This document shows positions 2,630 through 46,018 of a stretch of 46,259 nt of DNA, in pieces. Both the position numbers and the translations under genes were made by a program. The stretch's first letter is position 1. Each line of letters starts with the position of its first letter. The DNA is taken from the NCBI GenBank assembly GCA_027055805.1, contig JALUMR010000022.1:1-46259 (forward strand), read 5' to 3'. Source of the stretch: Campylobacteraceae bacterium. Its GTDB lineage: Bacteria; Campylobacterota; Campylobacteria; Campylobacterales; Sulfurovaceae. The notes beneath the pieces are model-generated. The model was not told the origin of the DNA. It saw only the letters and a list, made by a program, of their open reading frames with translations, and searched no databases.

Positions 2630-2662
2630 ACGTACTCTCTCTTTTCTTAAATTTCAAATTTC

Positions 2663-2697
2663 ATTATATAAAAATTATGTTTAGATGTTGTGTAGAT
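2663..2697 (-). promoter_or_regulatory. Promoter of the TCS operon: -10 TATAAT plus an 11-bp-period direct repeat (putative autoregulatory OmpR-type box)
   Basis: Minus strand reads ATCTACACA-ac-ATCTAAACA-N9-TATAAT. The geometry matches the boxes at 41901-41935 and 44582-44616. Confidence 0.55.
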
Positions 2698-5864: not shown

Positions 5865-6560
5865 ATGCAAAGATATGACTTAAGACATTTACATGATGAC
5901 TTCTATGACAGAATGGGTGAACTACTGGTTGGTGGGCTCAAAGTTAACGAAGTAGGAATTTTTCTTTTTGAAGTTGGAGATTACTCTTCTATTCAAAAAT
6001 CGGCTGATTTTATTAAAGAGAGTGGTCATGAACTTATGAACTCTGTTAAGTTCAATGAAGTAGATTGGACAATCGTAGTTAAGAAGCTTGATGAAAAAAC
6101 CATTGCTGATAAAAAAGAGGCTGCTGCTAAAGCTGCTGCTCTTGCAGAAGAGAAGCGAATAGAAGCAGAAAAGATAGCTGCCGAAAAAGCAGAGGCTAAA
6201 GCCAAAGCAGATGCAGAAAAAGCTAAAGCAGAAGCCGAAAAAGCTGCTGCCGAAGCGAAAGCTAAAGAGGAAGCCGAAAAAGCTGCTGCCGAAGCGAAAG
6301 CTAAAGAGGAAGCCGAAAAAGCTGCTGCCGAAGCGAAAGCTAAAGAGGAAGCCGAAAAAGCTGCTGCCGAAGCGAAAGCTAAAGAGGAAGCTGAAAAAGC
6401 TGCTGCTGAAGCGAAAGCTAAAGAAGAACCAGTAAAAAAAGAACAAGCTAAAAAAGCTCCTGCAAAGAAAGCTCCAGTTAAAAAAGCTCCAACTAAGAAA
6501 GCACCTGCCAAAAAGGCACCTGCTAAAAAATCTACAGCTAGTAAGCCAAAGGCTAAATAA
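5865..6560 (+). CDS. Campylobacterota-type small NuoE-like subunit (Cj1575c-like) with a long Ala/Glu/Lys repeat and KKAPA tail
   Basis: The N-terminal ~75 aa (MQRYDLRHL...FLFEVGD...NSVKFNEVDWTIV) resemble the epsilon NuoE replacement, and the gene follows nuoD. No Cys for a 2Fe-2S cluster. Confidence 0.82.
   Translation: MQRYDLRHLHDDFYDRMGELLVGGLKVNEVGIFLFEVGDYSSIQKSADFIKESGHELMNSVKFNEVDWTIVVKKLDEKTIADKKEAAAKAAALAEEKRIEAEKIAAEKAEAKAKADAEKAKAEAEKAAAEAKAKEEAEKAAAEAKAKEEAEKAAAEAKAKEEAEKAAAEAKAKEEAEKAAAEAKAKEEPVKKEQAKKAPAKKAPVKKAPTKKAPAKKAPAKKSTASKPKAK
6231..6425 (+). repeat. 39-bp tandem repeat x5 encoding (EAEKAAAEAKAKE)5
   Basis: Unit gaagccgaaaaagctgctgccgaagcgaaagctaaagag; four identical copies and a fifth with 3 synonymous changes. 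Confidence 0.95.
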
Positions 6561-22260: not shown

Positions 22261-24420
22261 ATGAAAACAGATGTGTTCACAAGGTTAAAACAGCTTATGT
22301 TTTTTATGTTTCTACTCTTTGCTAGTATGACAAAAGCAAGTGCAGTAGATACTATAAACTCAATCAATGGTCCAACTTCCATTACAAGAGGTAAAAGTAT
22401 TACAGTAAATATCGACTATGAGACAGGAGATAAAGATTTATTATTTGTGTTACAAGAAGGACAGTATCCATGGAGAATCTATCATACAGTAAGAAAACAT
22501 AGTAATGAAGATGGAAGACAAATTGAATTTACTGTACCTGATGCTATTCCAGCCAATATACCTTTGATGTACCAAGCCATCTTAACTAAAAAAGGAAAAT
22601 CTTGGAATGATAGAGTAAGTGTAAAATATCAAGAAGGTATGGTATTAAATACTGCTAAAGTAGAAAACTCTACAAAAAATGAACAGGCTACTTTAGATAA
22701 AAGTAAATGGTCATATTTTGGTAATACTTATGGAAAGCAAAGTCGTACCTATAATGGAAATCTTTTTATCTATTCAACACCTAAAGATATAGGCTCAGGA
22801 ATCTATCAAAAGATATCAACAGAAATAGGAAGAGAGTATGAAGTCACTGCCATACTGATAGGTTCAGACACCAATAGAAAAGAACAATTTAATGGAGAAT
22901 CATATTTAACTATAAGTAGTGCATTTCCAACACAAGGTAAAAATTCTGTATTTGAAGAATCAGAACATGTTACGGGAGCTATAGAAACTAAAGTTAGTTT
23001 TAGATTTACAGCTATATCTAGCAAAACTTATTTAGCACTTAGAAGTGATAGATCTTGGCACTATGCAAGTGCAAGAGCCATATCTGTAAAAGTAGTAGGT
23101 AATGACTCAATAGAAGATACGACCAAGCCAGTTATTACGCTTAATGGTGATACTAGTATTACATTATATCAAAATGAAACATATGTAGAACTAGGTGCAA
23201 CAGCCAATGATAATGTAGATGGAGACATTACAGCAAATATAGAAATTGGATCTAATGTAGATACCTCAACAGTTGGAACATATAAAGTAAAATATAATGT
23301 TTCTGATACAGATGATAATGAAGCAGTTGAAGTTATAAGAACCGTGCGAGTAGTAGCTAAATCAGAACATTATAAACCTTTAAGAGTAGTTAATTTAACA
23401 GATACATTTGTAATAAATCAAAATAATCAGATAATAGAAAATATACATTTTATATGTAATAACACAAATTTTGAAGCACTTAAGATTTCTGCATATAATA
23501 CATTAGTAAAAGGTAATTTATTTGAAAATTGTGCAACAGGTATTAATTTATCTGACGCATTCAATACTCATATTATGGGTAATCGATTTAAGCATGTAGG
23601 TAGTGGTATTGTTGCAACAGGTATGGAAGAGAACTCAGTTATAACATATAATGAATTTATAAATATGGGTGAAATTAACTGTGATGTAGCTACAGGTGGG
23701 GGGAATTGTAATATATATGGTCCTAGAGAATTAAGTAAAAATAATATTTTTTCACATAATCTTGTAGATAATCGAGGATTTAATGCTCGATATATGGAGG
23801 ACTATATAGGAATATTTAGTGGTAGTGCAGATATTAAACAAAATATAAAAGTTGAAGACAATACATTGATAGGAAGTTTAGTTTCTAGTAGCTCTGGTGC
23901 GTGTATTATTGGTGATGGAGAAGGCTCAGGGTATGAAATTAGAAGAAATAAATGCTACAATGTATCTGGGTATGGTATAGGAATAGCAAGTAATAAGGAT
24001 GCGAGGATAGAAGATAACTTAGTTTATATGGATAAGGAACATGTGGAACATATAACGAAATTTAATTCTAATATAAAAAGTGATGGTTCTTATACTTTTG
24101 GTGCAACAAGATATCATGGTTCTTGTGCTAAAAATATAACACTTAGAAACAATAAAAGTTACAGCTATATACAGTCTGACTATGGAAATCTTAATTATGG
24201 ATGGCAATGCTTAACTAATGAAGGTGGCAACTTTATTGCTGACAATAAAAATATCTCTAAGAATGGAGATGGAGATATAGTTTTTTCTATAAACGGAAAC
24301 TATAAAAATAATATTGTACTTCAGGGAAATACATTTTATAGATATGACCCTTATTGGAAAATTCCAAGCAACTTATTTGATGGTTTAGATAGTAACTATT
24401 TTAGTGGAAATACACATTAA
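22261..24420 (+). CDS. Secreted multidomain protein: signal peptide, beta-sandwich/CBM-like domains, DUF5011-like Ig domain, right-handed beta-helix
   Basis: Signal peptide ending ASA. DTTKPVITLNG...ELGATA.DNVDGDIT Ig motif. Asn/Ile-rich PbH1-like repeats (VKGNLF, IMGNRF, VEDNTL, IRRNKC, IEDNLV). Confidence 0.8.
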   Translation: MKTDVFTRLKQLMFFMFLLFASMTKASAVDTINSINGPTSITRGKSITVNIDYETGDKDLLFVLQEGQYPWRIYHTVRKHSNEDGRQIEFTVPDAIPANIPLMYQAILTKKGKSWNDRVSVKYQEGMVLNTAKVENSTKNEQATLDKSKWSYFGNTYGKQSRTYNGNLFIYSTPKDIGSGIYQKISTEIGREYEVTAILIGSDTNRKEQFNGESYLTISSAFPTQGKNSVFEESEHVTGAIETKVSFRFTAISSKTYLALRSDRSWHYASARAISVKVVGNDSIEDTTKPVITLNGDTSITLYQNETYVELGATANDNVDGDITANIEIGSNVDTSTVGTYKVKYNVSDTDDNEAVEVIRTVRVVAKSEHYKPLRVVNLTDTFVINQNNQIIENIHFICNNTNFEALKISAYNTLVKGNLFENCATGINLSDAFNTHIMGNRFKHVGSGIVATGMEENSVITYNEFINMGEINCDVATGGGNCNIYGPRELSKNNIFSHNLVDNRGFNARYMEDYIGIFSGSADIKQNIKVEDNTLIGSLVSSSSGACIIGDGEGSGYEIRRNKCYNVSGYGIGIASNKDARIEDNLVYMDKEHVEHITKFNSNIKSDGSYTFGATRYHGSCAKNITLRNNKSYSYIQSDYGNLNYGWQCLTNEGGNFIADNKNISKNGDGDIVFSINGNYKNNIVLQGNTFYRYDPYWKIPSNLFDGLDSNYFSGNTH

Positions 24421-24441
24421 GATATATTTATTGAGGTTAGC

Positions 24442-24620
24442 TTAGAATATATCTTTCCTTAACAATAAATCACTCAACTCCTCCAACGGCAAAGCAGTTT
24501 TTTCTTTAAACTGTGATGCATTAAAGGTTCTTTGCCTTTTTGCGAGTTGGGCTGTGTGGGTGACTATTTTTTTTTCATTTCTATTTTACTTTAGTACCCA
24601 TCTATGTAAGATAAAACCTC
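24442..24620 (-). pseudogene. miaA: Degenerate second copy of the miaA 3' end
   Basis: Matches about 27166-27333 (e.g. ttaaaggttctttgcctttttgcgagttgggctgtgtgggtgactattt is identical). Encodes ...[41 protein letters not shown]; has a 1-bp deletion and an internal stop. Confidence 0.9.
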
Positions 24621-24780
24621 TAATATATTTAGGATTGATTCTAAAGTAAATGTGAAGTATGGATATGGTTCTTATGTCGATTCAAACAGTTTTTCTAACT
24701 GGGAAAATCATGGCTACGATGAAGACTCTACTGTCATTAAAGATAGTATAAAATCAGTAGTACTTATAAATCTATCTCTA
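24621..24780 (+). pseudogene. Fragment of a paralog of the C-terminal region of the 25055-27154 beta-helix protein
   Basis: NIFRIDSKVNVK...NWENHGYDEDSTVIKDSIKSVVLINLSL aligns with NIIRINSGTDVK...QWNTYGYDEGSTIIKDSTKPVVLINPSL. Confidence 0.8.
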
Positions 24781-24825
24781 CTTATAGGATTTTATTTAAC
24801 AAATATGAAATTATACTTTAAAATA

Positions 24826-24964
24826 TTGGCATCCTATCCTTCATGACTAGCTAAAAGTAGTTGACACTTTAGGGGCAGTCGCTGTTATCTATTTCATGGA
24901 CTGAAGTCCATGCTCCTAAAACACTCAATATGCAAAAGTGTAAACTACCTCTGAAGGATGCCAA
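24826..24964. mobile_element. Second type of nested MITE/REP-like element
   Basis: Outer arms TTGGCATCCT(ATCCT)TCA / TGAAGGATGCCAA. Inner TIRs GTAGTTGACACTTT (24857-24870) / AAAGTGTAAACTAC (24935-24948). Internal hairpin CATGGACTGAAGTCCATG. Confidence 0.65.
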
Positions 24965-25054
24965 AATATTAATATGTATGTTATAGTATTAAACTTTATT
25001 TCAACAAAAATGAAATAAACTAAAATAATATTTAAAAATAAAAGGGGATAAAAA

Positions 25055-27154
25055 GTGAAAAATTTTTACTTTGTTATATTTATTGTATTTATGTTTTCTG
25101 GATGTGGAAATAATGCAGATAATGAAATTACTAAAACCGATGATACATTAAGAGTAATTAATATAGAAGGTTCTGACAAAAAGTATAGCCAACTTCAAGA
25201 TGCAGTAAATGCTACAAAAGAGGGAGATACTATTGTTTTAGGTAATGGTTTATATAAAGCAGATGTTACAGTAAATACAAATAACTTAACAATAAAAGCT
25301 GCAACAGATGCAAAAAATGTTGTACTAAGTGGTGATAAACCTGTAGTAAATTGGAAATATGATAGTAGTAAAGAGCTTTATTATGCTCCATCTCCCTGTA
25401 GTCCATTAAATTATAATGATATACATGATATACCTTATGTCAATGATAAGGGAAAAAAAGATGTACATCCTGCTAAAAGAATGAGTGGTGTAGATGCTCT
25501 ATTTATAAAGGGAGAAGAGAAGAGAGCTTCGAGATATCCTAATAGTGGATATTTAACAGTTAAAGAGTCACCATCAAAATCAAAATTTTCATTAAGAAAC
25601 TTTAATATGACCAATGAGGATATGAAAGACTCTGTAGCACATATACGTATGAGCCAGTGGAGACTTGCATCTCGACGTGTAAAAAGTTATGCATATGGTT
25701 ATATTAATCTTGAATCAGAAGCTATTTCTGATGAAAACACTATTTCTCCTCAATATAAAGTCTTTTTCACGCAAGTTGTAAGTGCGATTGATTCGAATGA
25801 AGAGTGGGCATGGAATGCCAATAAAATTTATATGAAGTCAGATGCAGAGCCTCAAGGTGTAAGCGTTGCTTGTAGTGAATATGGAATTCATCTTGGTATA
25901 AAAGTAAAGAAAGTTACGATTGATGGGTTAAATATTACTAAAATTAGAGGAAATGGTATCGATAAAGTAGATGATACTCGAACAGGTGTAAATGATGATT
26001 TAATTATAAAAAATAATATTATCTCTTATGTGTCTGGATGGGGTATAAAAGTGAGAGATTTTTATAAAAGATATGAACGTCTTCCAGCAGATACGACTAT
26101 ACAAGGTAATGAGATACATCATGCTAGAACAGGTGGAATGCGTATATTTGCAGACAATACACTGGTAGATAGTAATTACGTACATGATATAGGGGCATCT
26201 AAACTTGATGATGATGTATTATCATTTGGAGATAATTTCATGTTATCAGGTATTTTTATAGCAAATAGTTCAGGAGCAAAGGTTTTTAATAATAGAGTTA
26301 ATAATACAGGTTACAATGGAATATCTTTATCAAATTTTTGGCATGGCTGGATGTCTAATGGTGGTAGAATTGTAGAGAATAACTATGTCTCTAATGCAGT
26401 ATTGGCATTAAATGATGGTGCAGGGATTTATACTAAGACAGAAAAAACGCATGATAAAGAAAGAGGTGTAGACCCAGAAAGAGATATCATCCGTAATAAT
26501 ATTATAAAAAACTCCACTGGTTCATTTGTTGCTACGAAGACTGATTATCCTGAAGGTGAAGGGATATATTTAGATAATCTATCTTCCTATACTGATGTTA
26601 TAGGTAATACAGTAATTAATGCTACTAAAAGTCTCTATTTACATCAAAATTTTGAAATAAATATAAATAATAATACATTTATCTCTCCAAATACTGTAAG
26701 TATATTAATTGGTTATGCAGAAGATGATACTCAAGATAGTGAAAATATATTTATAAAAAATAATAAAATATTTTCGTCAGATAAGTTAACTTATAAAATT
26801 ATATTTAATTCAGGTCAAAAATATTTGACAGATTCAGACTTTAATATTATACGAATAAATAGTGGTACGGATGTAAAAATTAGACGTGGAGATGGACTAC
26901 TCCCTAATGTAAGCTTAAATCAATGGAATACTTATGGATACGATGAAGGCTCTACTATTATTAAAGATAGTACAAAACCAGTAGTGCTTATAAATCCATC
27001 TTTAAATAATTATGTATTTAATAATTTAGAAGGGTGTAGGAAGTTTAATAACACCTCTTTAGATGGAGCATCGAGTACTCTATTACCTTATCATTCATTA
27101 GTACTGTTTGGATGTAATAATTATCCTGCAGGAATATATAACAAAACAAAGTAG
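25055..27154 (+). CDS. Lipoprotein with a right-handed parallel beta-helix (pectin-lyase fold, possible glycan-active enzyme)
   Basis: GTG start and lipobox FSG-C. LQDAVNA...GDTIVL..G.Y cap, SRYPNSGY, LNDGAGIY, GIYLDN.S and many IxxNxI repeats. Confidence 0.82.
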   Translation: MKNFYFVIFIVFMFSGCGNNADNEITKTDDTLRVINIEGSDKKYSQLQDAVNATKEGDTIVLGNGLYKADVTVNTNNLTIKAATDAKNVVLSGDKPVVNWKYDSSKELYYAPSPCSPLNYNDIHDIPYVNDKGKKDVHPAKRMSGVDALFIKGEEKRASRYPNSGYLTVKESPSKSKFSLRNFNMTNEDMKDSVAHIRMSQWRLASRRVKSYAYGYINLESEAISDENTISPQYKVFFTQVVSAIDSNEEWAWNANKIYMKSDAEPQGVSVACSEYGIHLGIKVKKVTIDGLNITKIRGNGIDKVDDTRTGVNDDLIIKNNIISYVSGWGIKVRDFYKRYERLPADTTIQGNEIHHARTGGMRIFADNTLVDSNYVHDIGASKLDDDVLSFGDNFMLSGIFIANSSGAKVFNNRVNNTGYNGISLSNFWHGWMSNGGRIVENNYVSNAVLALNDGAGIYTKTEKTHDKERGVDPERDIIRNNIIKNSTGSFVATKTDYPEGEGIYLDNLSSYTDVIGNTVINATKSLYLHQNFEININNNTFISPNTVSILIGYAEDDTQDSENIFIKNNKIFSSDKLTYKIIFNSGQKYLTDSDFNIIRINSGTDVKIRRGDGLLPNVSLNQWNTYGYDEGSTIIKDSTKPVVLINPSLNNYVFNNLEGCRKFNNTSLDGASSTLLPYHSLVLFGCNNYPAGIYNKTK

Positions 27155-37346: not shown

Positions 37347-37856
37347 TTACTTCTTTTTCGGTATTGTAATGGTTAATACCCCATTTGTATATTCACTTTT
37401 ATACTTTACAGCATCTGCATCTTTAGGTAGTGTCATACCTCGTTGAACCATACCAACATGTCGCTCTTGGTGTATGATTTTATCACCCTCTTTTTGCTCT
37501 TTTTTAGTCTCACTCTTAGCTTGGACACTTAGGTAGTTATCTTTAACATCTATCTTGATGCTCTTCTCATCCATTCCTGCTAAATCCATTTTTAGCTCAT
37601 AGTTGTCGCCTTTGTCTACCAAATCGGTATCGGGCTTAAAAGAGAACCCTTTAGAAAAGTTTGGCTCAATTGCTACACCTTTGAAGGCATTGTTACTAAA
37701 CTCTGCAAAAGCTCGGTTCATCTCCTCTTGCATCTTTTGAAAATGTTGAAACATTGGGTCATTGGCAAAAGGATTTTTAGTTATGTTTGTATCTGCTTGT
37801 ATCGCTACCATTGATAGGGTAGCTAAAAGTAAGGTTTTTAACAATCTGTTTTTCAT
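37347..37856 (-). CDS. Hsp20/alpha-crystallin protein with a predicted signal peptide
   Basis: DLAGM, ER..G...R...LP and NGVLTITIPK; N-terminus MKNRLLKTLLLATLSMVAIQA. Confidence 0.88.
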   Translation of the reverse strand: MKNRLLKTLLLATLSMVAIQADTNITKNPFANDPMFQHFQKMQEEMNRAFAEFSNNAFKGVAIEPNFSKGFSFKPDTDLVDKGDNYELKMDLAGMDEKSIKIDVKDNYLSVQAKSETKKEQKEGDKIIHQERHVGMVQRGMTLPKDADAVKYKSEYTNGVLTITIPKKK

Positions 37857-37869
37857 CTTTATATGCTCC

Positions 37870-38310
37870 TTATTTAATCGAAATATTACGTGCTTTTCTA
37901 GCCTCTTCTTTCTCTAGTGAAATATAGAGTCTTCCATCTTCATAATTGGCTGAAATTTTCTCTCTGTCCACATCTTTTGGTAAGACAAAACTTCGAGAGA
38001 TAAGTCCATAGCTACTTTCACAAAGATAGTAGTCATCTTCTTTCACTTCCTCTTTTGTTCTGCGTACTGCATTAACAGTCAGATAGTCATCTTCTATTTT
38101 TAACTCTATCTCATCTTTATTGACCCCTGGTAAATCAATCTCAATGTCATAAGTATCTGTGCTATGTTTTGCAAAGTTTGCCAAAGGAAGATGTCTTGCT
38201 ACATTACCTAAGGCTTCTTTAGTAACCTCTAAGCCCTTTTCAACTTTCTCTTCAACAGCATTGACCAACTCTTTTCCATTTTCAATAATTTTATCTTTTG
38301 TTACACTCAT
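37870..38310 (-). CDS. Hsp20/alpha-crystallin protein
   Basis: DLPGV, YGLISRSFVLP and DGRLYI. Start moved to the ATG 6 nt after GGAG. Confidence 0.9.
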   Translation of the reverse strand: MSVTKDKIIENGKELVNAVEEKVEKGLEVTKEALGNVARHLPLANFAKHSTDTYDIEIDLPGVNKDEIELKIEDDYLTVNAVRRTKEEVKEDDYYLCESSYGLISRSFVLPKDVDREKISANYEDGRLYISLEKEEARKARNISIK

Positions 38311-38323
38311 CATTGACTCCTTA

Positions 38324-38761
38324 TTACTTAATCTCAATTTTTTTGCTTGAAGTATCTATTTTTAGTTTTGGAATGGAAATTTCTAAAATTCCATTAATAA
38401 ACTCAGCTTCGATATTTGAAGTGTCTACTCTCTCTGGAAGTGTAAAACTTCTTGAAAAGAGACCATAACGACTCTCTACCTTATGGTAGTCTTCATCTTT
38501 TACCTCTTCTCTCACATTTCTTTCCCCTGAAATGGTCAAGATATTTCCATCGACCTTAATGTCAACATTCTCTTTTTTAACACCAGGAAGCTCAACTTCA
38601 ATATGGTAATTCTCTTCTGTTTCACGGGTATTTACCTTTGGACGAAAATCAACTACTTCTTGTTCTGACGCTGCTTGTTCACCAATGGTGTTTATAATTG
38701 TATTTACAAGGTCAAAACTCTTTCTAATATCATTAAATGGTGTGTATTGTTTTACTATCAT
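38324..38761 (-). CDS. Hsp20/alpha-crystallin protein
   Basis: ELPGV, ESRYGLFSRSFTLP, NGILEISIPK and a C-terminal IEI motif. Confidence 0.93.
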   Translation of the reverse strand: MIVKQYTPFNDIRKSFDLVNTIINTIGEQAASEQEVVDFRPKVNTRETEENYHIEVELPGVKKENVDIKVDGNILTISGERNVREEVKDEDYHKVESRYGLFSRSFTLPERVDTSNIEAEFINGILEISIPKLKIDTSSKKIEIK

Positions 38762-38841
38762 GTTTTAATCCTTCTTGTTGTTTGTTATATTTGTTAGCAC
38801 TATGAGCTAAACATGAGAGAATTATAATATAAGGGAAGAGG

Positions 38842-38867
38842 AAAAAAATGCCACTTTAGTAGCATTT
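38842..38867 (-). terminator. Hairpin plus U-tract after the Crp/Fnr gene; also resembles a 22-bp Crp-type site
   Basis: Minus strand AAATGCTAC-TAAA-GTGGCATTT-TTTT with a G.U-compatible mismatch. Confidence 0.55.
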
Positions 38868-38875
38868 GCAGTTTT

Positions 38876-39553
38876 TTAATTAAGAAGCAGTTGTTCCGTA
38901 TTTTCAAGTAGCTTTTTGACATCTTTTACATAGATGTTTTTACGCTGGTTTTCAATCACATTTTCAGCCTCTAACTCTTTTAAGTGTCGCTCGACCACAT
39001 TACGAACCGTTCCTAGAAGTTTGGCTATTTCTGTTTTTGAGAGGTTTTGAAGCAGTTGATAGTAGTGTGCATCATTAGGGTTGATGTTTTGAAGTAACAA
39101 CTTGGAGAGACGCTCAGAGGTAGAATGGAGAGACAAATCAGAAGCCAACTCTTCTGCATGACGCATTTGAGAGGCAATGTAAGGGAAAAAGTGCTGATTA
39201 AACTTTTCATTGGTTTTTAGCCATTCACGCACTTTGGCAATGGGTAGTTCTAATACCTCTGAATTTTCTAAAACTTCATAAAGAACATCATGGGCTTTTC
39301 CATCAAGCAAGATGAGCGTATCAAACATGTCCCCAGCACGATAGATAAAAAGTGTCTGTTCTTTAGCATTTTCAAAATTTATTTGAAAACTTTTAATTTT
39401 TCCCTTTAGTACTATGTAGAAATATTTTGAAAGCTCTCCATTTAGAAAAGGGGTCTCTTTCTTCTTAAAAGAGACTATTTTACCATATTGTAAAAACTGC
39501 TCTTCAAAACTTTGCTCTAAATCTTTAAAAATTTCTATTCCATAGTGTTGCAT
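38876..39553 (-). CDS. Crp/Fnr family transcriptional regulator
   Basis: cNMP-binding-like barrel (FYIVLKGKIK, GDMF) and HTH LSKTEIAKLLGTVRNVVERHL. No Cys, so not an Fe-S FNR. Start moved to MQHY. Confidence 0.9.
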   Translation of the reverse strand: MQHYGIEIFKDLEQSFEEQFLQYGKIVSFKKKETPFLNGELSKYFYIVLKGKIKSFQINFENAKEQTLFIYRAGDMFDTLILLDGKAHDVLYEVLENSEVLELPIAKVREWLKTNEKFNQHFFPYIASQMRHAEELASDLSLHSTSERLSKLLLQNINPNDAHYYQLLQNLSKTEIAKLLGTVRNVVERHLKELEAENVIENQRKNIYVKDVKKLLENTEQLLLN

Positions 39554-39644
39554 TTTATCTCTTTTGTTCTTAAATTTGTATATTATATCCATTTAAAACT
39601 ATTTAAGTCGTAAATTATATAGACTACTTAATCCAATAAAACCT

Positions 39645-40661
39645 CTACTGTATAAATTCCATTTTTCTTTTTAAAACAAACCGACACCCACCCTCATAAG
39701 AATCATCTAAAAACAATTCATAACCGTTGTTTTCAGCCAAATTACGAGCAATGGAAAGCCCCAAACCAAAACCAGACTTCTCTCGGTTACGACTCTCATC
39801 TAAAGCAACAAAAGGTTCAAAAATACGCTCTCTATCTTTTTTTACTATGCCTATGCCTGTATCTTGTACACTAATAGAGTTTTTATCTGCTATTAGAGTA
39901 ATTGTTCCATTGTTAGTGAATTTAGTTGCATTATGTAAAAGGTTTACCAAAATCTTTTTAAGTGCCATACGATTAAACTCTATCTGTAAAGTATCAGAGA
40001 TAAGACACTTTAACTTCACAGGGTTTTCAACGCGAATCAAAGGACAAACATCAGCATGTATAAACGCTTTTAATAAAAATGTCTCTTTGGCTTCTACCAG
40101 CTCGTGAGACTCAATATATCCAATAACATCGGATGAGAGTTCATTGATGTAGGCTGTCTCTTTTTTTAATATACCAATGGCTCTTGGCATATCTTCTTCA
40201 CCTACCATGTTGTCTTCAAACTCTTCAAGATAACCATCAATAATGGTCAAGGGTGTTTTAATGTCATGAGAGAGTGAAAGTATGAGATTGTTCAGATTTT
40301 TATTTCTATTTTTTAACTCCAAAATCGAGTGTTCTAAACGCGTAGAGAGTTGCTTGATAGATGTATGGATATGGTTAATATCGACTATTTTGTCCGTATA
40401 ATTCTCTTCTAAAAAACGATTTTCACTAATGGCATCTAAACACTGATTAATCGCCTCAAACTTCTTAGAAAAGTAGTTCCCCATAAAGTAACTAAACAGT
40501 CCAATAAGGGGTAAGGTCACTAAAATAGTTAACCCTATCTCTGAGAGCATGGTCATACCAATAGGCACATCTATGATAAGGTAGGTCATAATGGCTGTAA
40601 ACAGGGCAATCAAAAACCCAGCCAAACCATACATAAATATCAAAAAGTTTTTAATCTTCAT
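39645..40661 (-). CDS. Sensor histidine kinase with a very short periplasmic loop (intramembrane-sensing type)
   Basis: SHDIKTPL, NLLHNATKF, DTGIGI and GFGLGL; two closely spaced TMs. Start moved to MKIK, overlapping the regulator stop. Confidence 0.92.
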   Translation of the reverse strand: MKIKNFLIFMYGLAGFLIALFTAIMTYLIIDVPIGMTMLSEIGLTILVTLPLIGLFSYFMGNYFSKKFEAINQCLDAISENRFLEENYTDKIVDINHIHTSIKQLSTRLEHSILELKNRNKNLNNLILSLSHDIKTPLTIIDGYLEEFEDNMVGEEDMPRAIGILKKETAYINELSSDVIGYIESHELVEAKETFLLKAFIHADVCPLIRVENPVKLKCLISDTLQIEFNRMALKKILVNLLHNATKFTNNGTITLIADKNSISVQDTGIGIVKKDRERIFEPFVALDESRNREKSGFGLGLSIARNLAENNGYELFLDDSYEGGCRFVLKRKMEFIQ

Positions 40662-41334
40662 AAAGTGTATACCCCACATTTCTTACCGTTTTAATTATCT
40701 CTTCATCACTATAAAGAGCAATTTTTTTACGCAGTTGATAGATATGTGTACCTATCCCTTTTTTATCTATGTTTCCAATGTTATTATTGTACAATATCTG
40801 CGACAATTCCTCTTTAGAAAAGACCTTTTTAGGGGTCGAGTAAAGTGTCTCTAAAATAGTATATTCACTAACGGTTAAAGTTAAAGGGTGATTTTGAACA
40901 TAAAAACGTTTTAACGCTTCATGATGCTCTAACATGGCAAAAGTAACATCTTCTACTTGCGTTAACTCAGAGCGTCTTTTTAGTAAAGAGCTTATCTTTA
41001 AAGCCACCATCTTAGGAGAAAAAGGTTTAGCTATGTAATCATCAGCCCCAAGAGCGTAAGCTTTCTCTTTTTTCTCGTCAATATCCAATGCAGAGACAAT
41101 AATAATGAGTGAATCTTTATGCCGTTTACGTACCTCATCACAAAGGGTTAAGCCATCAACTGAGGGCAACATAATGTCCAAAGAGAGTAAATCAAAGCGT
41201 TCATTTTGAATCAATTTTAATGCTTCATCTCCATTGTACGCCACACTTACATCGTAAATGTTAGCATCTAAACGATTTTGTATAAGCTTGACAATCTCCG
41301 GTTCATCTTCGACGATTAGTATTTTGTATTTCAT
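40651..41334 (-). CDS. OmpR-family response regulator
   Basis: VEDE, LDIMLP..DG, GADDYIAKPF and IKTVRNVGY. Confidence 0.94.
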   Translation of the reverse strand: MKYKILIVEDEPEIVKLIQNRLDANIYDVSVAYNGDEALKLIQNERFDLLSLDIMLPSVDGLTLCDEVRKRHKDSLIIIVSALDIDEKKEKAYALGADDYIAKPFSPKMVALKISSLLKRRSELTQVEDVTFAMLEHHEALKRFYVQNHPLTLTVSEYTILETLYSTPKKVFSKEELSQILYNNNIGNIDKKGIGTHIYQLRKKIALYSDEEIIKTVRNVGYTLYED

Positions 41335-41871
41335 CTATTCAAAAGTGTTTTGTAATTTGGTAAACAAAAAGTCATTCTCTTTTGCCACAGAGTGACAAGC
41401 AATACAACCTTTAGTTCCTTTACTCCAAGCTTCAAACTTACCATCTTTTTTAATAAACCTAGCATAACCCCAATTGTCTCCATTGGCATCAAAGTTCTTT
41501 GAATCTTTCACCATATACTCCACTCTCTGAATTTTATCTGCTTCTAAAGCCTTAGGGAAAAGTCCCATCTTCTTAACCGACCAACCAATCTTAACGATTT
41601 TAGACTCCTTAGGCATCACCTTTAGTTTATCTTTTAAAGCATTATACCCAATAGGATTGGCTAAAATATATCGCAATTCATTTTTGTCAGTTCTAAAATG
41701 AGTTGCAACTATTTTATAGTCTTGGTAGCCCTCTATCATCTCAAAAGTTAAGTTGTTGTCAGGCATTTTTAGCATTGGTAACTTTGTGTTGTGGGTTAGG
41801 TAAATGTTACTTGCGTAAGCTACTCCAACGATGAGGGTGGATAGTAGTGTGATTTTTGTTAGATTTTTCAT
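41335..41871 (-). CDS. Periplasmic cytochrome P460/c'-beta family protein
   Basis: Signal peptide; ELRYILAN, KIVK, VEYMVKDS..F, NWGYARF and C-terminal CIACH...DFLF. Confidence 0.82.
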   Translation of the reverse strand: MKNLTKITLLSTLIVGVAYASNIYLTHNTKLPMLKMPDNNLTFEMIEGYQDYKIVATHFRTDKNELRYILANPIGYNALKDKLKVMPKESKIVKIGWSVKKMGLFPKALEADKIQRVEYMVKDSKNFDANGDNWGYARFIKKDGKFEAWSKGTKGCIACHSVAKENDFLFTKLQNTFE

Positions 41872-41900
41872 GGGTTACTCCGTTTAATTTTAATAAGTAG

Positions 41901-41935
41901 AGTATATAAGAACTATATCAAGATAGTATCAAGAT
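41901..41935 (-). promoter_or_regulatory. Promoter with a tandem direct-repeat box upstream of the P460-RR-HK operon
   Basis: Minus strand ATCTTGATA-ct-ATCTTGATA-N9-TATACT. Confidence 0.7.
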
Positions 41936-41972
41936 GATGTAAAAATTAGAATAAATATAAAGTGATTTTACT

Positions 41973-41998
41973 TGTGACGAAGCTTTATCCTCGCCACA
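41973..41998. repeat. Degenerate REP-like hairpin
   Basis: TGTGACGAAG-CTTTAT-CCTCGCCACA; imperfect arms around a TTTA loop like the MITE-internal hairpins. Confidence 0.35.
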
Positions 41999-42046
41999 TT
42001 TAGGGGATGGAATAATTTTATAGTTATTATTTTAGTTCTTAACAAA

Positions 42047-42697
42047 CTAATCTTTAATACAACGAACAGAACGACCATTACCTGTATCGGAACTTATACT
42101 CTCTGATAAGATACTTGTCTCGCTACTTGGATAAACTAGTTTTCCATTGGTAAAAGTAGGATAATTGTTTACAACGTTTCTTCTAAATGCTTTTGCATCA
42201 TTACCTAAAAATACTGGAGTAGAAGACCATAGAGTCAAATCTCTTTTTTCTCCAGATATTACATTTGGAAGTTTTGCCTTTCTTTCACCAGCAAATGGTA
42301 ATTTTAGAAAATTATTAGCTATTTCGTTATTCGATAAGGTATTCAATCTTTCATCTTCAATTTCTGAAATTGTTGGTACTCTATAACTTACAGGACACAC
42401 AAAATCTCCAGAAGTGCTTTCCCAACGAGAACGCATTGTTCCAACTGTTTTAGCATTTGTCCAGTCATCATTAGAGAAGTAACTACCATCTTCGGGGTCA
42501 TCTTTCATGAATTTGTCAGATTTTTCAAGTAAATCAATTGTTCCATCTACTGCTTGACTAGTTCGTAATTGATGTCCATCAGAACCTCTTCCCCACTGAT
42601 AATAATCCCCAAAACAAGCTTTATCAGTTGTGCTTTCACAAACTTTTTTTGCACCTATGTTTCTATCTAGCCAAATTCTACTTGTAACAAGATTGCA
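42047..42697 (-). pseudogene. 5'-truncated fragment of a FISUMP (Fib_succ_major)-like surface protein domain
   Basis: The frame stays open 63 codons upstream of the listed ATG (IWLDRNIGA...CFGDYYQWGRGSDGH) up to a TGA at 42698-42700, with no plausible start. Downstream motifs CPVSYRVPT..E, LKLPFAGER, WSST and SVRCIKD. Confidence 0.72.
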
Positions 42698-42725
42698 TCA
42701 AGAAAGAACATAAAATAATATCTAT

Positions 42726-43478
42726 TCAAAACTTTCGGTTAATATTAAACCCAAAATGCATATCATTATTATCTGTACCAAGAGCCATGGTTCTAGCATC
42801 CATGTTACTAGAGTTAGTAGCTAATACCTCAAAATGGTGTCCATAAGTTTGAAACTTCACACCAAAAGCATAGGCATCATTTTTACCTGAAACACCTTCA
42901 ATTTTATCAACTTGTGGATAATACTCAGCCAACAATGAAACCTGTTCAGTAAAAGTTAAAAATGACATAAAGTTATTAACATTTAAGTCAGCACCAAAAC
43001 CAAAAATTTGATGTTCATAAAAACCATCATACCCCATATTGGCAGTAAAGTTTAAATGGTTAAAATAGTTAGGTGTTTGCAATGAACCATTGAGCATATA
43101 ACTTTTTTGAGTATCTTCAAAATTTGCATTATTTATTCTAAAGCCATTAACACGTACTCCTGCTTTTATCCAATCAAAATCATGGGCATACTCAACTCCT
43201 ATACCATAAGCATTTTCGGCTCGGGTATGGTCAACACCAACCAAAAGGTTGTCAGATACGGCATACTTAAGAGCCAAATACATATTGCCACCATCATCCA
43301 TACCAAAAAACTTTTCAGCATCATCTATCTCACCGTAAAAACGGTGACGAATATTGAAGGAGCCTTCATTTTTCTTCAAAACATTTGGTGTATCTAAGCT
43401 CAACTGTCCTGCTTCAAATGCCATAAGAGATTGACTCATTAAAAGTATAGAGCCTATTGTAATAATTTTTTTCATCAT
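42726..43478 (-). CDS. Outer-membrane beta-barrel (DUF5777-like)
   Basis: Signal peptide; IRHRFYG, FFGMDDG, TYGHHFE...TNS and C-terminal FGFNINRKF. Confidence 0.78.
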   Translation of the reverse strand: MMKKIITIGSILLMSQSLMAFEAGQLSLDTPNVLKKNEGSFNIRHRFYGEIDDAEKFFGMDDGGNMYLALKYAVSDNLLVGVDHTRAENAYGIGVEYAHDFDWIKAGVRVNGFRINNANFEDTQKSYMLNGSLQTPNYFNHLNFTANMGYDGFYEHQIFGFGADLNVNNFMSFLTFTEQVSLLAEYYPQVDKIEGVSGKNDAYAFGVKFQTYGHHFEVLATNSSNMDARTMALGTDNNDMHFGFNINRKF

Positions 43479-43481
43479 AAC

Positions 43482-44549
43482 CTACTTTTTCAATGTTGCT
43501 ACAAAAGCACTAAGGTTAATAATTGCTTCGTCAGAGAGTCCACTAGCCACAGAAACCATTGCTGAATTTCGGTTGTTGGGGTTGCCATTATCTCGCATAT
43601 CTTTTAACTTTTTTGTAATAAGTTCAGCGTCTCCATACCTTGCAATAATATTGTCAACACCTAAAGGTTTAGTTTGTCCATCAGCACCATGACAACTAGA
43701 ACATTTAGCAGGATTTGTAAAAATAACTTTTCCTTTTTCTACAGCTTCAGCAGTATAAGGAGAAGCTACTACCGTAGATGTTTTTTGTGCTGAAATTTCA
43801 ACCACATGCCAAACACCTTTTACCCAATCACCTTTTGTCACACCCGATTTTTTAGCATCTGGAGTAAAATAATAAAGAGGTTTTCCTTTATACGCTGTCT
43901 GTTTTAAAACGCCTGTTTTGGACTTATTCGCATCACGAGAAATAGTTGTAAAATCAGATGTTTTTAAAGTAGTGGGAACACTCTGAACATTTGAATTATA
44001 ATAGATAGGCCAAGTCTCTTCACAAGCTCCATAACAATTACTTACTCCTTCTGTATCTTTATCAAAGGTATACAAAGTTCTTCCATCTTTATCGGTTAAG
44101 TATGTTTGAGTCATTGTCTCTGCTGAATATTCAGTTTGTGAATCATTGGAACTTTTAGGAGCATAGAGTAAATGCCAAACATTTTTAATATTATCACCGT
44201 TTACATTACCTATTGCATTATCATTTACAAAGTAATAAAGAGGATGTTTCCTATATGCCAAATGGTCTGTACCATCAAGGACTTTTATATCTTCACTCGT
44301 GGTGTTAGCACCTACAAAAAGTGGCCATATTTTTTGACACTCAGCATCGCAATTACTTTGGTTTAAAGTATCTTTATCAAAGGTATAGAGACTCATACCA
44401 TCTGTATCGGTTAAAAAGTTTACAGTTCTGTTTAGTGATTTTAAACGGTTGTTATCATTATTTGAATCTTTTGATGAATAGGTATCACCACAGCCTATAA
44501 GTGTTAAAGTTACTAAAGATAGCAATCCTGTTTTGGTTAAAGTTGTCAT
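43482..44549 (-). CDS. Lipoprotein with duplicated COG4315/Lipoprotein_15 repeats fused to a C-terminal cytochrome c domain
   Basis: Lipobox LIG-C; two copies of LTD.DG..LYTFDKD...SNC...C...WP...PLYYF..D...GD....VWH; CSSCH with a distal Met candidate (SAM). Confidence 0.85.
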   Translation of the reverse strand: MTTLTKTGLLSLVTLTLIGCGDTYSSKDSNNDNNRLKSLNRTVNFLTDTDGMSLYTFDKDTLNQSNCDAECQKIWPLFVGANTTSEDIKVLDGTDHLAYRKHPLYYFVNDNAIGNVNGDNIKNVWHLLYAPKSSNDSQTEYSAETMTQTYLTDKDGRTLYTFDKDTEGVSNCYGACEETWPIYYNSNVQSVPTTLKTSDFTTISRDANKSKTGVLKQTAYKGKPLYYFTPDAKKSGVTKGDWVKGVWHVVEISAQKTSTVVASPYTAEAVEKGKVIFTNPAKCSSCHGADGQTKPLGVDNIIARYGDAELITKKLKDMRDNGNPNNRNSAMVSVASGLSDEAIINLSAFVATLKK

Positions 44550-44581
44550 ATGGACTCCATTTATAATTTATTTGTAACTGA

Positions 44582-44616
44582 AGTATATGAAGAGTTTATC
44601 AAGATTGTGTGAAGAT
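44582..44616 (-). promoter_or_regulatory. Promoter with the same direct-repeat box upstream of the lipoprotein-barrel operon
   Basis: Minus strand ATCTTCACA-ca-ATCTTGATA-N9-TATACT. Confidence 0.7.
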
Positions 44617-44662: not shown

Positions 44663-45589
44663 TTAGTGAAAATCCAATAACCCCTTTAGTTTCTTCTCTA
44701 AACTTTTTTTAACCAACTTCTTCAAAGGGCGAGGGTACATTACACGAATTTTGGGTAACCACTTAATTACCAACTCCTCTAGCTCTTTTAGGTTGGATAC
44801 TTTGTACTGTACCTCTATGTCTCCATTGTCAAAATGGGCCACGACCTCTTGGCTGGGTAGATACTTTTTCAAGATAAAATAATGGCGAATAGAACTGTCA
44901 ACACGTAGACGAACGGTAGTTTCGTCTCTGCCAAAAACAGCCCAAGGTGTTTGAATACGTTTTATAAAATCTACTATGTCTTTATGTACAAAAAAAGTTT
45001 TTTTAGTAGCTATAACTTCGTCAACTAAGGAGATACGTAAAAATTCAAAATTAGATTTACTAACATTTTTACCTACGATGTAGAAGTTCTCGTTAAGAAA
45101 AAGTATTTTGTAGGGGTGAAAGTTTCGCTTCCCCACAAAGCGTTCTGTTCTATAGACTATCTTCACCTCTTTATTAAATTTAATAGCATGTTCAAGCTGT
45201 TTAATGACTTCTCTATTTTTCATGTTCTCAAAGGGGCGTGATTTAAAGTCATAAACGGACATAGATTTTTTAATGAGTGCTTGAGTTTTATCTGAAATAA
45301 CCGACTCTTTAGAAGTAATACCAAAGATATTGACGATGTTTGCCAAAGTCATCAAATCAGTAGCAGAAAGCACCTCTTCAAGAAGTACCTTTTTATAAGC
45401 TTGATAACACTCACCCTCTTTAGACATAAAATCTCCAAAAAGTTCACGTATCAGCTCAAAATCACGCCGAATGGTTCGGTCACTTACCTCATATATTTGA
45501 GAGAGTTGCGTAACACAGAGCTTTTTACCTTCGTTGAGGTGTTTTAAAATTTCTATGGTTCGGTATAGGCTTGATTTTTGGCTCATCAT
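44663..45589 (-). CDS. HTH-WYL(-WCX) transcriptional regulator
   Basis: N-terminal HTH YEVSDRTIRRD; WYL core FHPYKILF...FYIVG...FLRISLV; C-terminal WLPKIRVMYP. The start may be the second ATG (45586). Confidence 0.9.
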   Translation of the reverse strand: MMSQKSSLYRTIEILKHLNEGKKLCVTQLSQIYEVSDRTIRRDFELIRELFGDFMSKEGECYQAYKKVLLEEVLSATDLMTLANIVNIFGITSKESVISDKTQALIKKSMSVYDFKSRPFENMKNREVIKQLEHAIKFNKEVKIVYRTERFVGKRNFHPYKILFLNENFYIVGKNVSKSNFEFLRISLVDEVIATKKTFFVHKDIVDFIKRIQTPWAVFGRDETTVRLRVDSSIRHYFILKKYLPSQEVVAHFDNGDIEVQYKVSNLKELEELVIKWLPKIRVMYPRPLKKLVKKSLEKKLKGLLDFH

Positions 45590-45596
45590 TAACTCC

Positions 45597-45624
45597 TTTT
45601 GGACAGTGTACGTCCAAAATTATA
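45597..45624 (-). promoter_or_regulatory. Inverted-repeat operator between the -10 and RBS of the WYL gene
   Basis: TTTTGGAC-N7-GTCCAAAA (45597-45619) abutting the minus-strand TATAAT (45619-45624). Confidence 0.65.
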
Positions 45625-45685
45625 TCGTTTTAAACCCTACTATTTCCCTTTAGCATGTTTACATGTTTTTTTCACTTAGATTCAC

Positions 45686-46018
45686 CTAAAAATTAAAATC
45701 ACTTTTACTTAAATCACGTTTTGAAATAGTATAGCCTTGCATCACTTCATAAACTAAAACATCAGCTTCAATATTTGCTACTGATAATATATGAAGGATT
45801 TTGTCTAAACGTTCAGTAGAGTCTAGTAAAATGGAGACATTGATTTTTGTTATAAAGTCAACAGTATATTGTGCTCCACGATATCCCTCTTTATGTATAT
45901 GTCCTTCACCATACTCTTTAACCTCAAATGTAGAAATTTTCTTAATGCCAATTTCTCTCAATACCTCTTTAACTTCGTCGATTTTATGTTCAAATATTAA
46001 TAGTTCCAGCTTAATCAT
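45686..46018 (-). CDS. Divergent P-II (GlnB/GlnK-like) protein
   Basis: KIDEVKEVL.EIGI and T-loop YRGAQY.VDF..K retained; B-loop and C-loop motifs absent. Confidence 0.8.
   Translation of the reverse strand: MIKLELLIFEHKIDEVKEVLREIGIKKISTFEVKEYGEGHIHKEGYRGAQYTVDFITKINVSILLDSTERLDKILHILSVANIEADVLVYEVMQGYTISKRDLSKSDFNF

What the first reader, a model, noticed from the sequence alone, without database searches (positions are those of the whole stretch)
39645..44616. Candidate undescribed envelope redox module: heme-c lipoprotein + outer-membrane barrel + cytochrome P460 + TCS under one promoter box
Seen: two co-oriented units (lipoprotein-barrel; P460-regulator-kinase) carry the same promoter architecture, an ATCTTGATA-type direct repeat with 11-bp period exactly 9 bp upstream of TATACT. 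Established: OmpR-family regulators bind about 11-bp-period direct repeats and often autoregulate, and porin-cytochrome pairs can move electrons or solutes across outer membranes. Inference: this kinase, which has almost no periplasmic domain, controls a small regulon linking a surface or periplasmic cytochrome, a barrel and a P460-type enzyme, for example for hydroxylamine/NO handling or electron transfer. I know of no characterised system with this composition.
Basis: partly seen in the sequence, partly recalled or inferred. Interest (0 to 1): 0.75.

Follow-up and report, generated by a model that had tools for sequence, protein, structure and literature searches.

The report
Sensor-controlled periplasmic cytochrome P460 operon
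Vent sulfur bacteria carry a conserved gene set (a cytochrome P460 enzyme, a heme lipoprotein, a small outer-membrane pore and a two-component sensor) behind one shared DNA repeat; it is likely a self-regulated unit that detoxifies a reactive small molecule, predicted to be hydroxylamine but possibly sulfite.

Summary
Both promoters carry an 11-bp-period repeat 9 bp before TATACT. The pattern occurs 2 times in the 1.8-Mb genome against 0.026 expected. A matrix from 29 promoters of other genomes ranks the two sites first and second. The order lipoprotein-barrel-P460-regulator-kinase recurs in 10 other Campylobacterota loci, 9 of them with one box before the lipoprotein and none before P460. The core is box-P460-regulator-kinase (P460 upstream of the regulator in 35 of 40 loci). 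P460 genes in 8 of 8 genomes without the regulator have no box. The P460 is of the Methylococcus type and keeps the cross-link Lys, capping Arg and distal carboxylate positions. The barrel is predicted 12-stranded, so an electron conduit is unlikely. Best reading: an autoregulated periplasmic detoxification regulon in which P460 oxidises hydroxylamine and the lipoprotein heme takes the electrons; the substrate and the electron path are inferred. A serious rival is sulfite: elsewhere the same box precedes a SorA-like enzyme and a PEB3-like protein, echoing the Sinorhizobium RpoE1/RpoE4 regulon. No description was found in 9 literature searches. Binding, expression and activity are untested.

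The parts
44582..44616 (-). Promoter box 1: ATCTTCACA-CA-ATCTTGATA, then 9 nt, then the -10 element TATACT; 67 nt from box start to the lipoprotein ATG
   Evidence: (best site in the genome, 50.4 bits)
43482..44549 (-). Lipoprotein (lipobox Cys20) with four Lipoprotein_15 repeats, two invariant CxxxC pairs (C67/C71, C172/C176) and a C-terminal class I cytochrome c (C283, C286, H287, M331)
   Evidence: these residues invariant in 51 of 51 aligned sequences
42726..43478 (-). DUF5777 outer-membrane beta-barrel, predicted 12 strands with a conserved N-terminal segment and a C-terminal Phe
   Evidence: (pLDDT 89.9)
42047..42688 (-). FISUMP-domain surface-protein gene lacking its 5' part; not in the module of other genomes
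   Evidence: (528 more bases at 42681-42688 in contigs of 2 other runs)
41973..41998 (-). 10-bp hairpin between the FISUMP gene and box 2; possible terminator (inferred; no classical T-run)
   Evidence: region z = -2.45; not listed
41901..41935 (-). Promoter box 2: ATCTTGATA-CT-ATCTTGATA, then 9 nt, then TATACT
   Evidence: (second-best site, 37.1 bits)
41335..41871 (-). Cytochrome P460 of the Methylococcus capsulatus type: K94 (= cross-link K78), R67 (= capping R50), R60 (= R43), E118 (= D102), C156/C159/H160
   Evidence: 6HIU, E 1.6e-17; invariant in 35 of 35
40651..41334 (-). OmpR/PhoB-family response regulator; its ATG follows the P460 stop codon directly
39645..40661 (-). Histidine kinase with an N-terminal hydrophobic hairpin, a short [P/H]IGxxM loop and no periplasmic sensor domain
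   Evidence: loop Met in 28 of 28 short orthologues

Best explanation
This is a conserved Campylobacterota gene module whose promoters carry one direct-repeat box, and it likely works as a self-regulated periplasmic detoxification unit: the kinase would sense a reactive small molecule, the regulator would bind the box, and the induced cytochrome P460 is predicted to oxidise hydroxylamine to N2O/NO. SHOWN: the gene set and order; the box with a fixed 9-bp spacing to the -10 element; conservation across genera; box present with the regulator and absent without it; retention of the three residues that define active P460s. INFERRED, regulation: the phosphorylated regulator binds the two half-sites and activates its own operon; the kinase senses at membrane level without a required partner. 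INFERRED, chemistry: the lipoprotein's His/Met heme c accepts electrons from P460 and possibly from its own CxxxC pairs; the barrel is a solute channel paired with that cytochrome. I put about 0.85 on the regulon and about 0.5 on hydroxylamine or a related reactive nitrogen species given the regulon.
For: Box: 2 genome-wide hits against 0.026 expected. A matrix trained on 29 promoters of other genomes ranks the two sites first and second of all positions in the genome (50.4 and 37.1; next 17.3). The -10 hexamer was not part of the search seed yet lies exactly 9 nt downstream in 29 of 29. P460 promoters in 8 of 8 genomes with no regulator orthologue score 7.0 or less; a genome with the regulator elsewhere scores 17.3. 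Synteny: five-gene order in 10 other loci; P460 upstream of the regulator in 35 of 40 loci with upstream sequence, and in 15 of 16 metagenome loci found with the regulator as query. Enzyme: best solved relative is M. capsulatus P460; cross-link Lys, capping Arg and distal carboxylate are kept in 35 of 35, the three features tied to hydroxylamine oxidation in PMC11928373 Table 2. A methanotroph cytL deletion is ammonium-sensitive and makes less N2O (10.1101/2025.01.28.635327, passages). Barrel-cytochrome pairing: a barrel lies in 11 of 12 loci with an intact Lipoprotein_15-cytochrome fusion and uncut downstream sequence, and in 0 of 6 with a heme-less Lipoprotein_15. All 3 Bacteroidota DUF5777 loci viewed have a cytochrome c-like lipoprotein and YceI just upstream.
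Against: No enzymatic hydroxylamine source was found: the HAO family (PF13447) is missing from 35 of 38 genomes searched, this one included (75% complete). The norCB promoter of this genome is not among the 5 sites above 8 bits. The distal residue is Glu where M. capsulatus has Asp, and carboxylate position is finely tuned in these enzymes. The kinase-regulator pair also exists without an adjacent P460 in 5 of 40 loci, and G040 (99% complete) has no P460 at all, so its signal need not be the P460 substrate. Other box-led or coupled genes point elsewhere: a SorA-like enzyme, a PEB3-like protein, MsrAB, an FAD monooxygenase. Many loci are related, and about a third were found with P460 as the query, so the counts are not independent.
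Confidence: 0.45

Rival explanations
1. It is a sulfite (sulfur-oxyanion) stress regulon, a two-component counterpart of the ECF26 RpoE1/RpoE4 system of Sinorhizobium meliloti. The kinase would respond to sulfite from sulfur oxidation, the Lipoprotein_15 cysteine pairs and P460 would intercept or oxidise it, and heme c would drain the electrons.
For: The S. meliloti regulon comprises a 'lipoprotein 15' protein, a Paa/PEB3-like binding protein and the sulfite dehydrogenase SorT (PMC3511301, passages). Under the present box, G040 has Lipoprotein_15 + SorA-like enzyme + cytochrome c (30.7 bits) facing the orthologous regulator-kinase. G245 has Lipoprotein_15 (29.3) and, elsewhere, a PEB3/AcfC homologue (32.9; E 4e-64 to PEB3). 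L192 has a PEB3-like gene directly before a broken regulator and the kinase. Of 9 P460 loci without an adjacent sensor, 3 follow a TDT transporter (2 also YeiH, 1 with a divergent YeiE-like LysR), 1 ends a sox cluster and 1 faces sorAB. YeiE/YeiH confer sulfite resistance in Salmonella (10.1101/2025.07.27.662810, abstract). The TDT-linked P460s group with sensor-linked ones in a quick tree. M. capsulatus P460 binds sulfate at Arg43 in one crystal form (PMC12352625, passage); that Arg is invariant here. This genome has soxC.
Against: 16 of 17 SorA-type loci in the 38 genomes searched have no box, including ordinary sorAB in genomes that carry the sensor. A PEB3 homologue was found in only 1 of 38 genomes. 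0 of 65 Lipoprotein_15 loci outside Campylobacterota have SorA in the stretch held, up to 8 kb each side. 0 of 21 proteobacterial P460 loci showed the sulfur genes tested. Sulfur genes are common in these hosts and no background rate was measured. The P460 review never mentions sulfur.
Confidence: 0.28
2. It is a general periplasmic oxidant or reactive-chlorine response. The invariant Met of the kinase loop would be oxidised (as in HprRS, recalled), and the targets would repair or quench oxidative damage.
For: The Met three residues after [P/H]IG is present in 28 of 28 short kinases. In two genomes of one genus the kinase gene overlaps or abuts a co-oriented secreted MsrAB gene, followed by thioredoxin. 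One Bacteroidota DUF5777 operon includes a truncated globin.
Against: MsrAB coupling is seen in 2 related loci of 41. One clade replaced the whole Met-bearing input by a Cache-like domain yet kept the box and targets, which suggests a ligand rather than Met oxidation. P460 is not a known peroxide scavenger (recalled).
Confidence: 0.14
3. Barrel and heme lipoprotein form a porin-cytochrome conduit for extracellular electron transfer.
For: The barrel tracks the cytochrome domain across loci and phyla. A weaker box (17.3 bits, normal distance to the ATG) precedes a 9-heme lipoprotein with an MtrC/MtrF-like domain match in this genome.
Against: The model has 12 strands. Best structural matches are small channels and secretion barrels (BrkA Z 16.8, FapF 16.2, KdgM 16.1, COG4313 15.5). 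The partner has one heme. Known conduits use wider barrels (MtrB, Cyc2; recalled).
Confidence: 0.05

Closest known systems
Cytochrome P460 (CytL) of Methylococcus capsulatus Bath, PDB 6HIU; CytL of Methylotuvimicrobium buryatense
   Same: Best solved relative (E 1.6e-17). CxxCH, cross-link Lys, Arg43, capping Arg50 and a distal carboxylate are all kept.
   Different: Glu instead of Asp102. The host is a sulfur-oxidising Campylobacterales with no HAO-family gene found. The gene sits in an operon with its own sensor pair and, optionally, a candidate electron acceptor; the review read has no hit for 'operon', 'gene cluster', 'redox partner' or 'Campylobacter'.
ECF26 RpoE1/RpoE4 sulfite regulon of Sinorhizobium meliloti (SMc01418, SMc02156, sorT)
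   Same: Small autoregulated regulon with a Lipoprotein_15 gene as first gene; PEB3-like and Sor-like genes appear under the present box in single genomes.
   Different: The regulator here is an OmpR-type pair, not an ECF sigma/anti-sigma. The constant target is P460. The lipoprotein is fused to cytochrome c. Ordinary sorAB genes have no box.
OmpR/PhoB-family direct-repeat regulons (PhoBR pho box, CreBC cre-tag; recalled) and SulRS of Sulfurimonas hydrogeniphila
   Same: REC + winged-helix regulator, two half-sites about one helical turn apart in place of a -35 element, regulator gene inside the controlled unit (SulRS passages).
   Different: No named NCBIfam regulator or kinase model among the best 25 shown reaches its cut-off. 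The SulR consensus (TTTAYATTTAKKAGWTACAMTTA) and its sox linkage differ.
Intramembrane-sensing histidine kinases (BceS/LiaS-like; class definition recalled)
   Same: Under 400 aa, two predicted membrane helices joined by a short loop, no periplasmic domain.
   Different: No ABC transporter or LiaF-type partner is encoded nearby. Neither P460 nor Lipoprotein_15 is always present. One clade swapped in a Cache-like domain plus HAMP.
Bacteroidota cytochrome c lipoprotein - YceI - DUF5777 operons (uncharacterised)
   Same: DUF5777 follows a cytochrome c-like lipoprotein in 3 of 3 loci viewed; in Chondrinema a six-repeat Lipoprotein_15 gene leads the set.
   Different: They include YceI, and no P460 or sensor pair is annotated in the stretches viewed; repeats and cytochrome are separate genes.

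Membership tests
Cytochrome P460 | PF16694 fold with C-terminal CxxCH | tested here: met
   Pfam E 6.9e-27; C156/C159/H160 invariant in 35 of 35
Cytochrome P460 | Lys at the heme cross-link position (absent in cytochromes c'-beta) | tested here: met
   K94 aligns with K78 of 6HIU (numbering confirmed by Table 2); invariant in 35 of 35
Cytochrome P460 | Distal capping residue | tested here: met
   R67 = Arg50
Cytochrome P460 | Correctly placed distal carboxylate | tested here: inconclusive
   E118 aligns with Asp102; Asp/Glu exchanges can abolish activity
Cytochrome P460 | Formed cross-link, ~460-nm ferrous band, NH2OH oxidation | not testable with these tools
   needs purified holo-protein
OmpR/PhoB-family regulon | REC + Trans_reg_C regulator with adjacent HisKA/HATPase kinase | tested here: met
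OmpR/PhoB-family regulon | Conserved direct repeat at fixed distance from -10, tied to presence of the regulator | tested here: met
OmpR/PhoB-family regulon | Regulator binds the repeat and activates transcription | not testable with these tools
   EMSA, footprint or reporter needed
Intramembrane-sensing histidine kinase | Under 400 aa with two membrane helices and a very short outer loop (criterion recalled) | tested here: met
   338 aa; continuous N-terminal hydrophobic stretch broken by a short DVPIG loop; topology inferred from hydropathy
Porin-cytochrome electron conduit (MtrAB, Cyc2) | Wide barrel able to hold a heme domain (strand numbers recalled) | tested here: not met
   12 strands predicted, pLDDT 89.9; best matches are small channels
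Porin-cytochrome electron conduit (MtrAB, Cyc2) | Multiheme partner, or heme domain fused to the barrel | tested here: not met
   one CxxCH in the lipoprotein, none in the barrel
ECF26 sulfite regulon (RpoE1/RpoE4) | ECF sigma / anti-sigma pair | tested here: not met
   regulator is a two-component pair
ECF26 sulfite regulon (RpoE1/RpoE4) | Lipoprotein_15 gene leading the autoregulated unit | tested here: met
ECF26 sulfite regulon (RpoE1/RpoE4) | Sulfite dehydrogenase under the same control | tested here: inconclusive
   box before 1 of 17 SorA-type loci; this 75%-complete genome shows soxC only
ECF26 sulfite regulon (RpoE1/RpoE4) | Induction by sulfite | not testable with these tools
   no RNA holder listed
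SulRS (Sulfurimonas) | SulR consensus and adjacency to soxABXYZ | tested here: not met
   different consensus; no sox gene flanks the sensor loci annotated
DUF5777 beta-barrel | PF19089 match and barrel fold | tested here: met
   E 3.2e-24

The most novel reading that the evidence does not exclude
The pair is a sulfite-sensing two-component system that replaced the ECF26 sigma factor, and this P460 clade is a periplasmic sulfite-handling heme enzyme rather than a hydroxylamine oxidase. The Lipoprotein_15 CxxxC pairs are redox centres wired to a tethered heme c, and DUF5777 is the entry pore. That would give a new chemistry to the P460 family and a function to two domains of unknown function at once.
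Probability: 0.2. Interest if true: 0.85.

Novelty: new variant of a known kind. Interest (0 to 1): 0.62.

Why it matters
What cytochrome P460 does in bacteria that oxidise neither ammonia nor methane is open, and no dedicated regulator or electron acceptor for a P460 turned up in the papers read. This module supplies a candidate regulator, an exact operator sequence and a candidate redox partner, so one reporter fusion can show which stress calls for P460. If the signal is hydroxylamine, vent and sediment Campylobacterota would have an inducible N2O-forming route that is not usually counted. If it is sulfite, P460 chemistry extends into the sulfur cycle. Either result gives a first functional handle on PF03640 and DUF5777.

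Tried and rejected
Chance or a plain -35 element: rejected; spacing is 9 nt, not 16-18, and the site tracks the regulator. P460 or Lipoprotein_15 as an obligatory co-sensor of the kinase: not supported; G040 has the pair but no P460, and PF03640 was not found in 5 of 5 genomes with the P460-sensor core (which had no positive control; one search agrees for G022). Barrel-lipoprotein complex prediction: no answer, score 0.00 in two runs; not used as evidence either way. Fold search of the lipoprotein model: only the cytochrome domain matched (best Z 12.8); the repeat region was barely tested and was not folded alone. PDB search with a Cache-like kinase domain: 1 irrelevant hit at E 0.46, so no ligand clue. 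Copper pore idea (His/Met-rich barrel; PcoB at Z 11.1): weak; in 136 distant homologues only H45 (97%) and H214 (100%) stay conserved and most Met do not. A large trans-regulon: not seen; in 10 genomes the best pattern matches were mostly the module promoter, with a few extra sites, some beside other two-component systems or copper genes that may belong to paralogues. DUF5777 in Pseudomonadota: 0 of 301 over the cut-off. Expression: no RNA holder listed. ESM Atlas look-ups returned nothing usable. Earlier scan notes: nothing on this module, one unrelated parallel. Literature: 9 searches; none of the papers listed describes this module, and 'DUF5777', 'PF19089' and 'COG4315' had 0 occurrences in the 13 papers listed. 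The library lacks most subscription papers, and no supplements were read. The P460 tree is the quick version; the careful search did not finish.

Full report
1. Setting. The window is contig C22 of G000 (1.8 Mb, 75% complete, 34% G+C). Its relatives are Campylobacterota: named records with the module are Sulfurimonas, Sulfurovum and Sulfurospirillum MAGs. The runs that hold most of the stretch are hydrothermal-vent metagenomes. The genome has soxC and norCB-like genes (read from the sequence).

2. The genes are as described, all on the minus strand: a lipoprotein with four Lipoprotein_15 repeats and a class I cytochrome c, a DUF5777 barrel, cytochrome P460, an OmpR-type regulator and a histidine kinase. 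Between barrel and P460 lies an extra gene remnant. Its longer homologues are FISUMP-domain surface proteins, and near-identical contigs in 2 of 4 runs laid carry 528 more bases at its 5' end, so it is truncated only in this strain.

3. The box is real. ATCTTGATA-N9-TATACT occurs twice in the genome, at 44605 and 41924, against 0.026 expected. I collected the first-gene promoters of 29 loci from other genomes, leaving out G000 and three congeners. The seed covered only the 20-bp repeat and was drawn by eye, so that part is partly circular. The -10 hexamer (TAnnnT) was not in the seed and follows after exactly 9 nt in 29 of 29. The consensus is ATCTTCATACAATCTTGATA-N9-TATACT. Scanned over the whole own genome, the matrix gives 50.4 and 37.1 bits for the two window sites and 17.3 for the next best.

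4. The box tracks the regulator. Held-out promoters in genomes with the regulator score 29 to 50 (G022, G436, G437, G121, G245). Ten genomes whose P460 has no adjacent sensor were searched for the regulator: 9 have none at E 1e-30 and G212 has one elsewhere. The P460 promoters of 8 of those 9 were scored (G139 was not) and reach at most 7.0; that of G212 reaches 17.3. Of 41 loci with the regulator orthologue, 30 show a box above 15 bits, 9 lack the promoter region at a contig end, and 2 (L057, L269) have sequence but no box (most of the 30 were training sites).

5. Synteny. The order lipoprotein-barrel-P460-regulator-kinase recurs without an intervening gene in 10 loci: L047, L066-L072, L187 and L190 (L071 has a frameshifted barrel and a cut kinase; the L072 kinase lies beyond the contig end). 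Nine have one box before the lipoprotein and none before P460; L047 has a second box before P460, as the window does. P460 lies upstream of the regulator in 35 of 40 loci with upstream sequence. For loci found with the regulator as query, the figures are 15 of 16 in metagenomes and 2 of 5 in genomes. The module is patchy: this P460 is in 22 of 401 genomes drawn from the order and 4 of 40 in the genus; the regulator is in 5 of 401 from the class (a lower bound because only 7 candidates per genome were scored). Two congeners at 94% DNA identity have box-P460-regulator-kinase at the same site with no lipoprotein or barrel. In G022 the single promoter matches box 1 upstream and the P460 leader downstream, as a deletion between the two boxes would leave it (direction inferred). 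Decayed copies of lipoprotein, barrel or P460 occur in G121, G252 and G270.

6. P460. The best solved relative is M. capsulatus P460 (6HIU, E 1.6e-17), well ahead of cytochrome c'-beta and the Nitrosomonas enzymes. Counting along that alignment, K94, R67, R60 and E118 correspond to Lys78, Arg50, Arg43 and Asp102; all are invariant in 35 of 35 aligned Campylobacterota sequences. The review PMC11928373 (abstract, first parts of sections 4 and 6) names the cross-link Lys, distal carboxylate and capping residue as the determinants of hydroxylamine oxidation and warns that Asp/Glu exchanges can abolish it. A methanotroph cytL mutant is ammonium-sensitive and makes less N2O (bioRxiv 2025.01.28.635327, passages).

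7. Lipoprotein and barrel. The fusion is a family: 205 protein clusters at E 1e-10, most of the 120 listed carrying both domains. Lipobox Cys, two CxxxC pairs, CxxCH and the putative axial Met331 are invariant in 51 of 51. The model is confident (pLDDT 87) and the cytochrome domain resembles c553/c554. The barrel model has 12 strands (pLDDT 89.9) and resembles BrkA, FapF, KdgM and COG4313 barrels. By strand alternation its lumen is polar with mixed charge (7 basic, 8 acidic, inferred). The barrel accompanies the heme-bearing fusion (11 of 12 loci) and never the heme-less repeat protein (0 of 6). In 3 of 3 Bacteroidota plasmid loci a cytochrome c-like lipoprotein and YceI precede DUF5777, once with a six-repeat Lipoprotein_15 gene as well. 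This cassette therefore has its own history and was combined with the P460-sensor core.

8. Kinase. The N-terminal hairpin and its [P/H]IGxxM loop are conserved in 28 of 28 short orthologues. In one well-supported regulator clade (100/99; L067, L069-L072) the four kinases that could be read have a large periplasmic domain (dCache_1 match below cut-off in one) plus HAMP, with the same box and targets. Neither P460 nor Lipoprotein_15 is always present, so a required co-sensor is not supported.

9. Which signal? Hydroxylamine rests on the enzyme. Against it, HAO-family genes are missing in 35 of 38 genomes searched and the nor promoter has no box. Sulfite rests on context. The box leads Lipoprotein_15-SorA-like-cytochrome in G040 and a PEB3/AcfC homologue in G245, the same three gene classes as the sulfite-induced RpoE1/RpoE4 regulon (PMC3511301, passages; PMC6527743, passages, reports SMc01418 as constitutively high). 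Five of 9 sensor-less P460 loci adjoin TDT/YeiH, sox or sorAB genes. Against sulfite: 16 of 17 SorA-type loci lack the box, PEB3 occurs in 1 of 38 genomes, and no such link appears outside Campylobacterota (0 of 65 and 0 of 21 loci). An oxidant reading rests on the invariant Met and on MsrAB coupling in 2 related loci.

10. Comparison and novelty. Every part belongs to a known family, and the regulatory logic is that of OmpR/PhoB regulons. The pair is not SulRS (PMC12936845, passages). No named NCBIfam model shown reaches its cut-off. Nine literature searches listed no description of this combination, its box, or a function for DUF5777; Lipoprotein_15 appears as a repeat family without known structure (PMC8078820, one passage). 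Subscription papers and supplements were not seen. Verdict: a real, conserved and apparently undescribed regulon, a new variant of a known kind; the regulon is well supported, the signal and chemistry are inferred.

Noticed in passing
G000:C169:2563-4373 (L271): Third-best box in the genome (17.3 bits, 66 nt to the ATG) precedes a 581-aa, 9-heme lipoprotein with an MtrC/MtrF-like domain match. A similar multiheme lipoprotein in G270 has box-like sites beside another two-component pair, so a paralogous regulator may own it.
   Followed up: partly
window 841-2697 (-): A second OmpR-type regulator-kinase pair has a weak similar repeat (12.5 bits) at the same distance from its ATG, possibly its own autoregulatory box.
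   Followed up: no
window 44663-46018; L259 8957-13847: WYL regulator and a divergent P-II-like gene flank the module. In congener G022 the region also holds an SPFH gene, an RtcB homologue and an RF-1-domain (PrfH-like) gene; the window lacks the SPFH gene at that site.
   Followed up: partly
window 37347-39592 (-): Crp/Fnr-family regulator followed by three tandem Hsp20 genes and an HtpX-like protease gene (last label read from the sequence) directly downstream of the kinase; conserved in the two congeners.
   Followed up: no
L067, L069, L070, L071 kinases: Sensor-domain swap: a short intramembrane input replaced by a ~270-aa periplasmic Cache-like domain plus HAMP with the same catalytic core, box and targets.
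   Followed up: partly
L081, L083, L085 (Alteromonadales-type records): Parallel architecture with different parts: multi-repeat Lipoprotein_15 (up to 10 repeats), two heme proteins, an ECF sigma / RskA anti-sigma pair and a barrel, in two cases divergent from an OmpR pair.
   Followed up: partly
L071 6460-7660: A second strong box (43 bits) precedes an FAD-dependent monooxygenase upstream of the module.
   Followed up: partly
L369, L370, L371, L377, L351: Proteobacterial P460 genes of this type repeatedly follow an alpha/beta-hydrolase gene.
   Followed up: no
window 22261-27154 (+): Two large secreted-looking proteins (719 and 699 aa) with repetitive, beta-helix-like sequence (read from the sequence, not scanned).
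   Followed up: no
window 5865-6560 (+): A gene in the NADH dehydrogenase cluster carries a long tandem EKAAAEAKAKEEA-type repeat.
   Followed up: no
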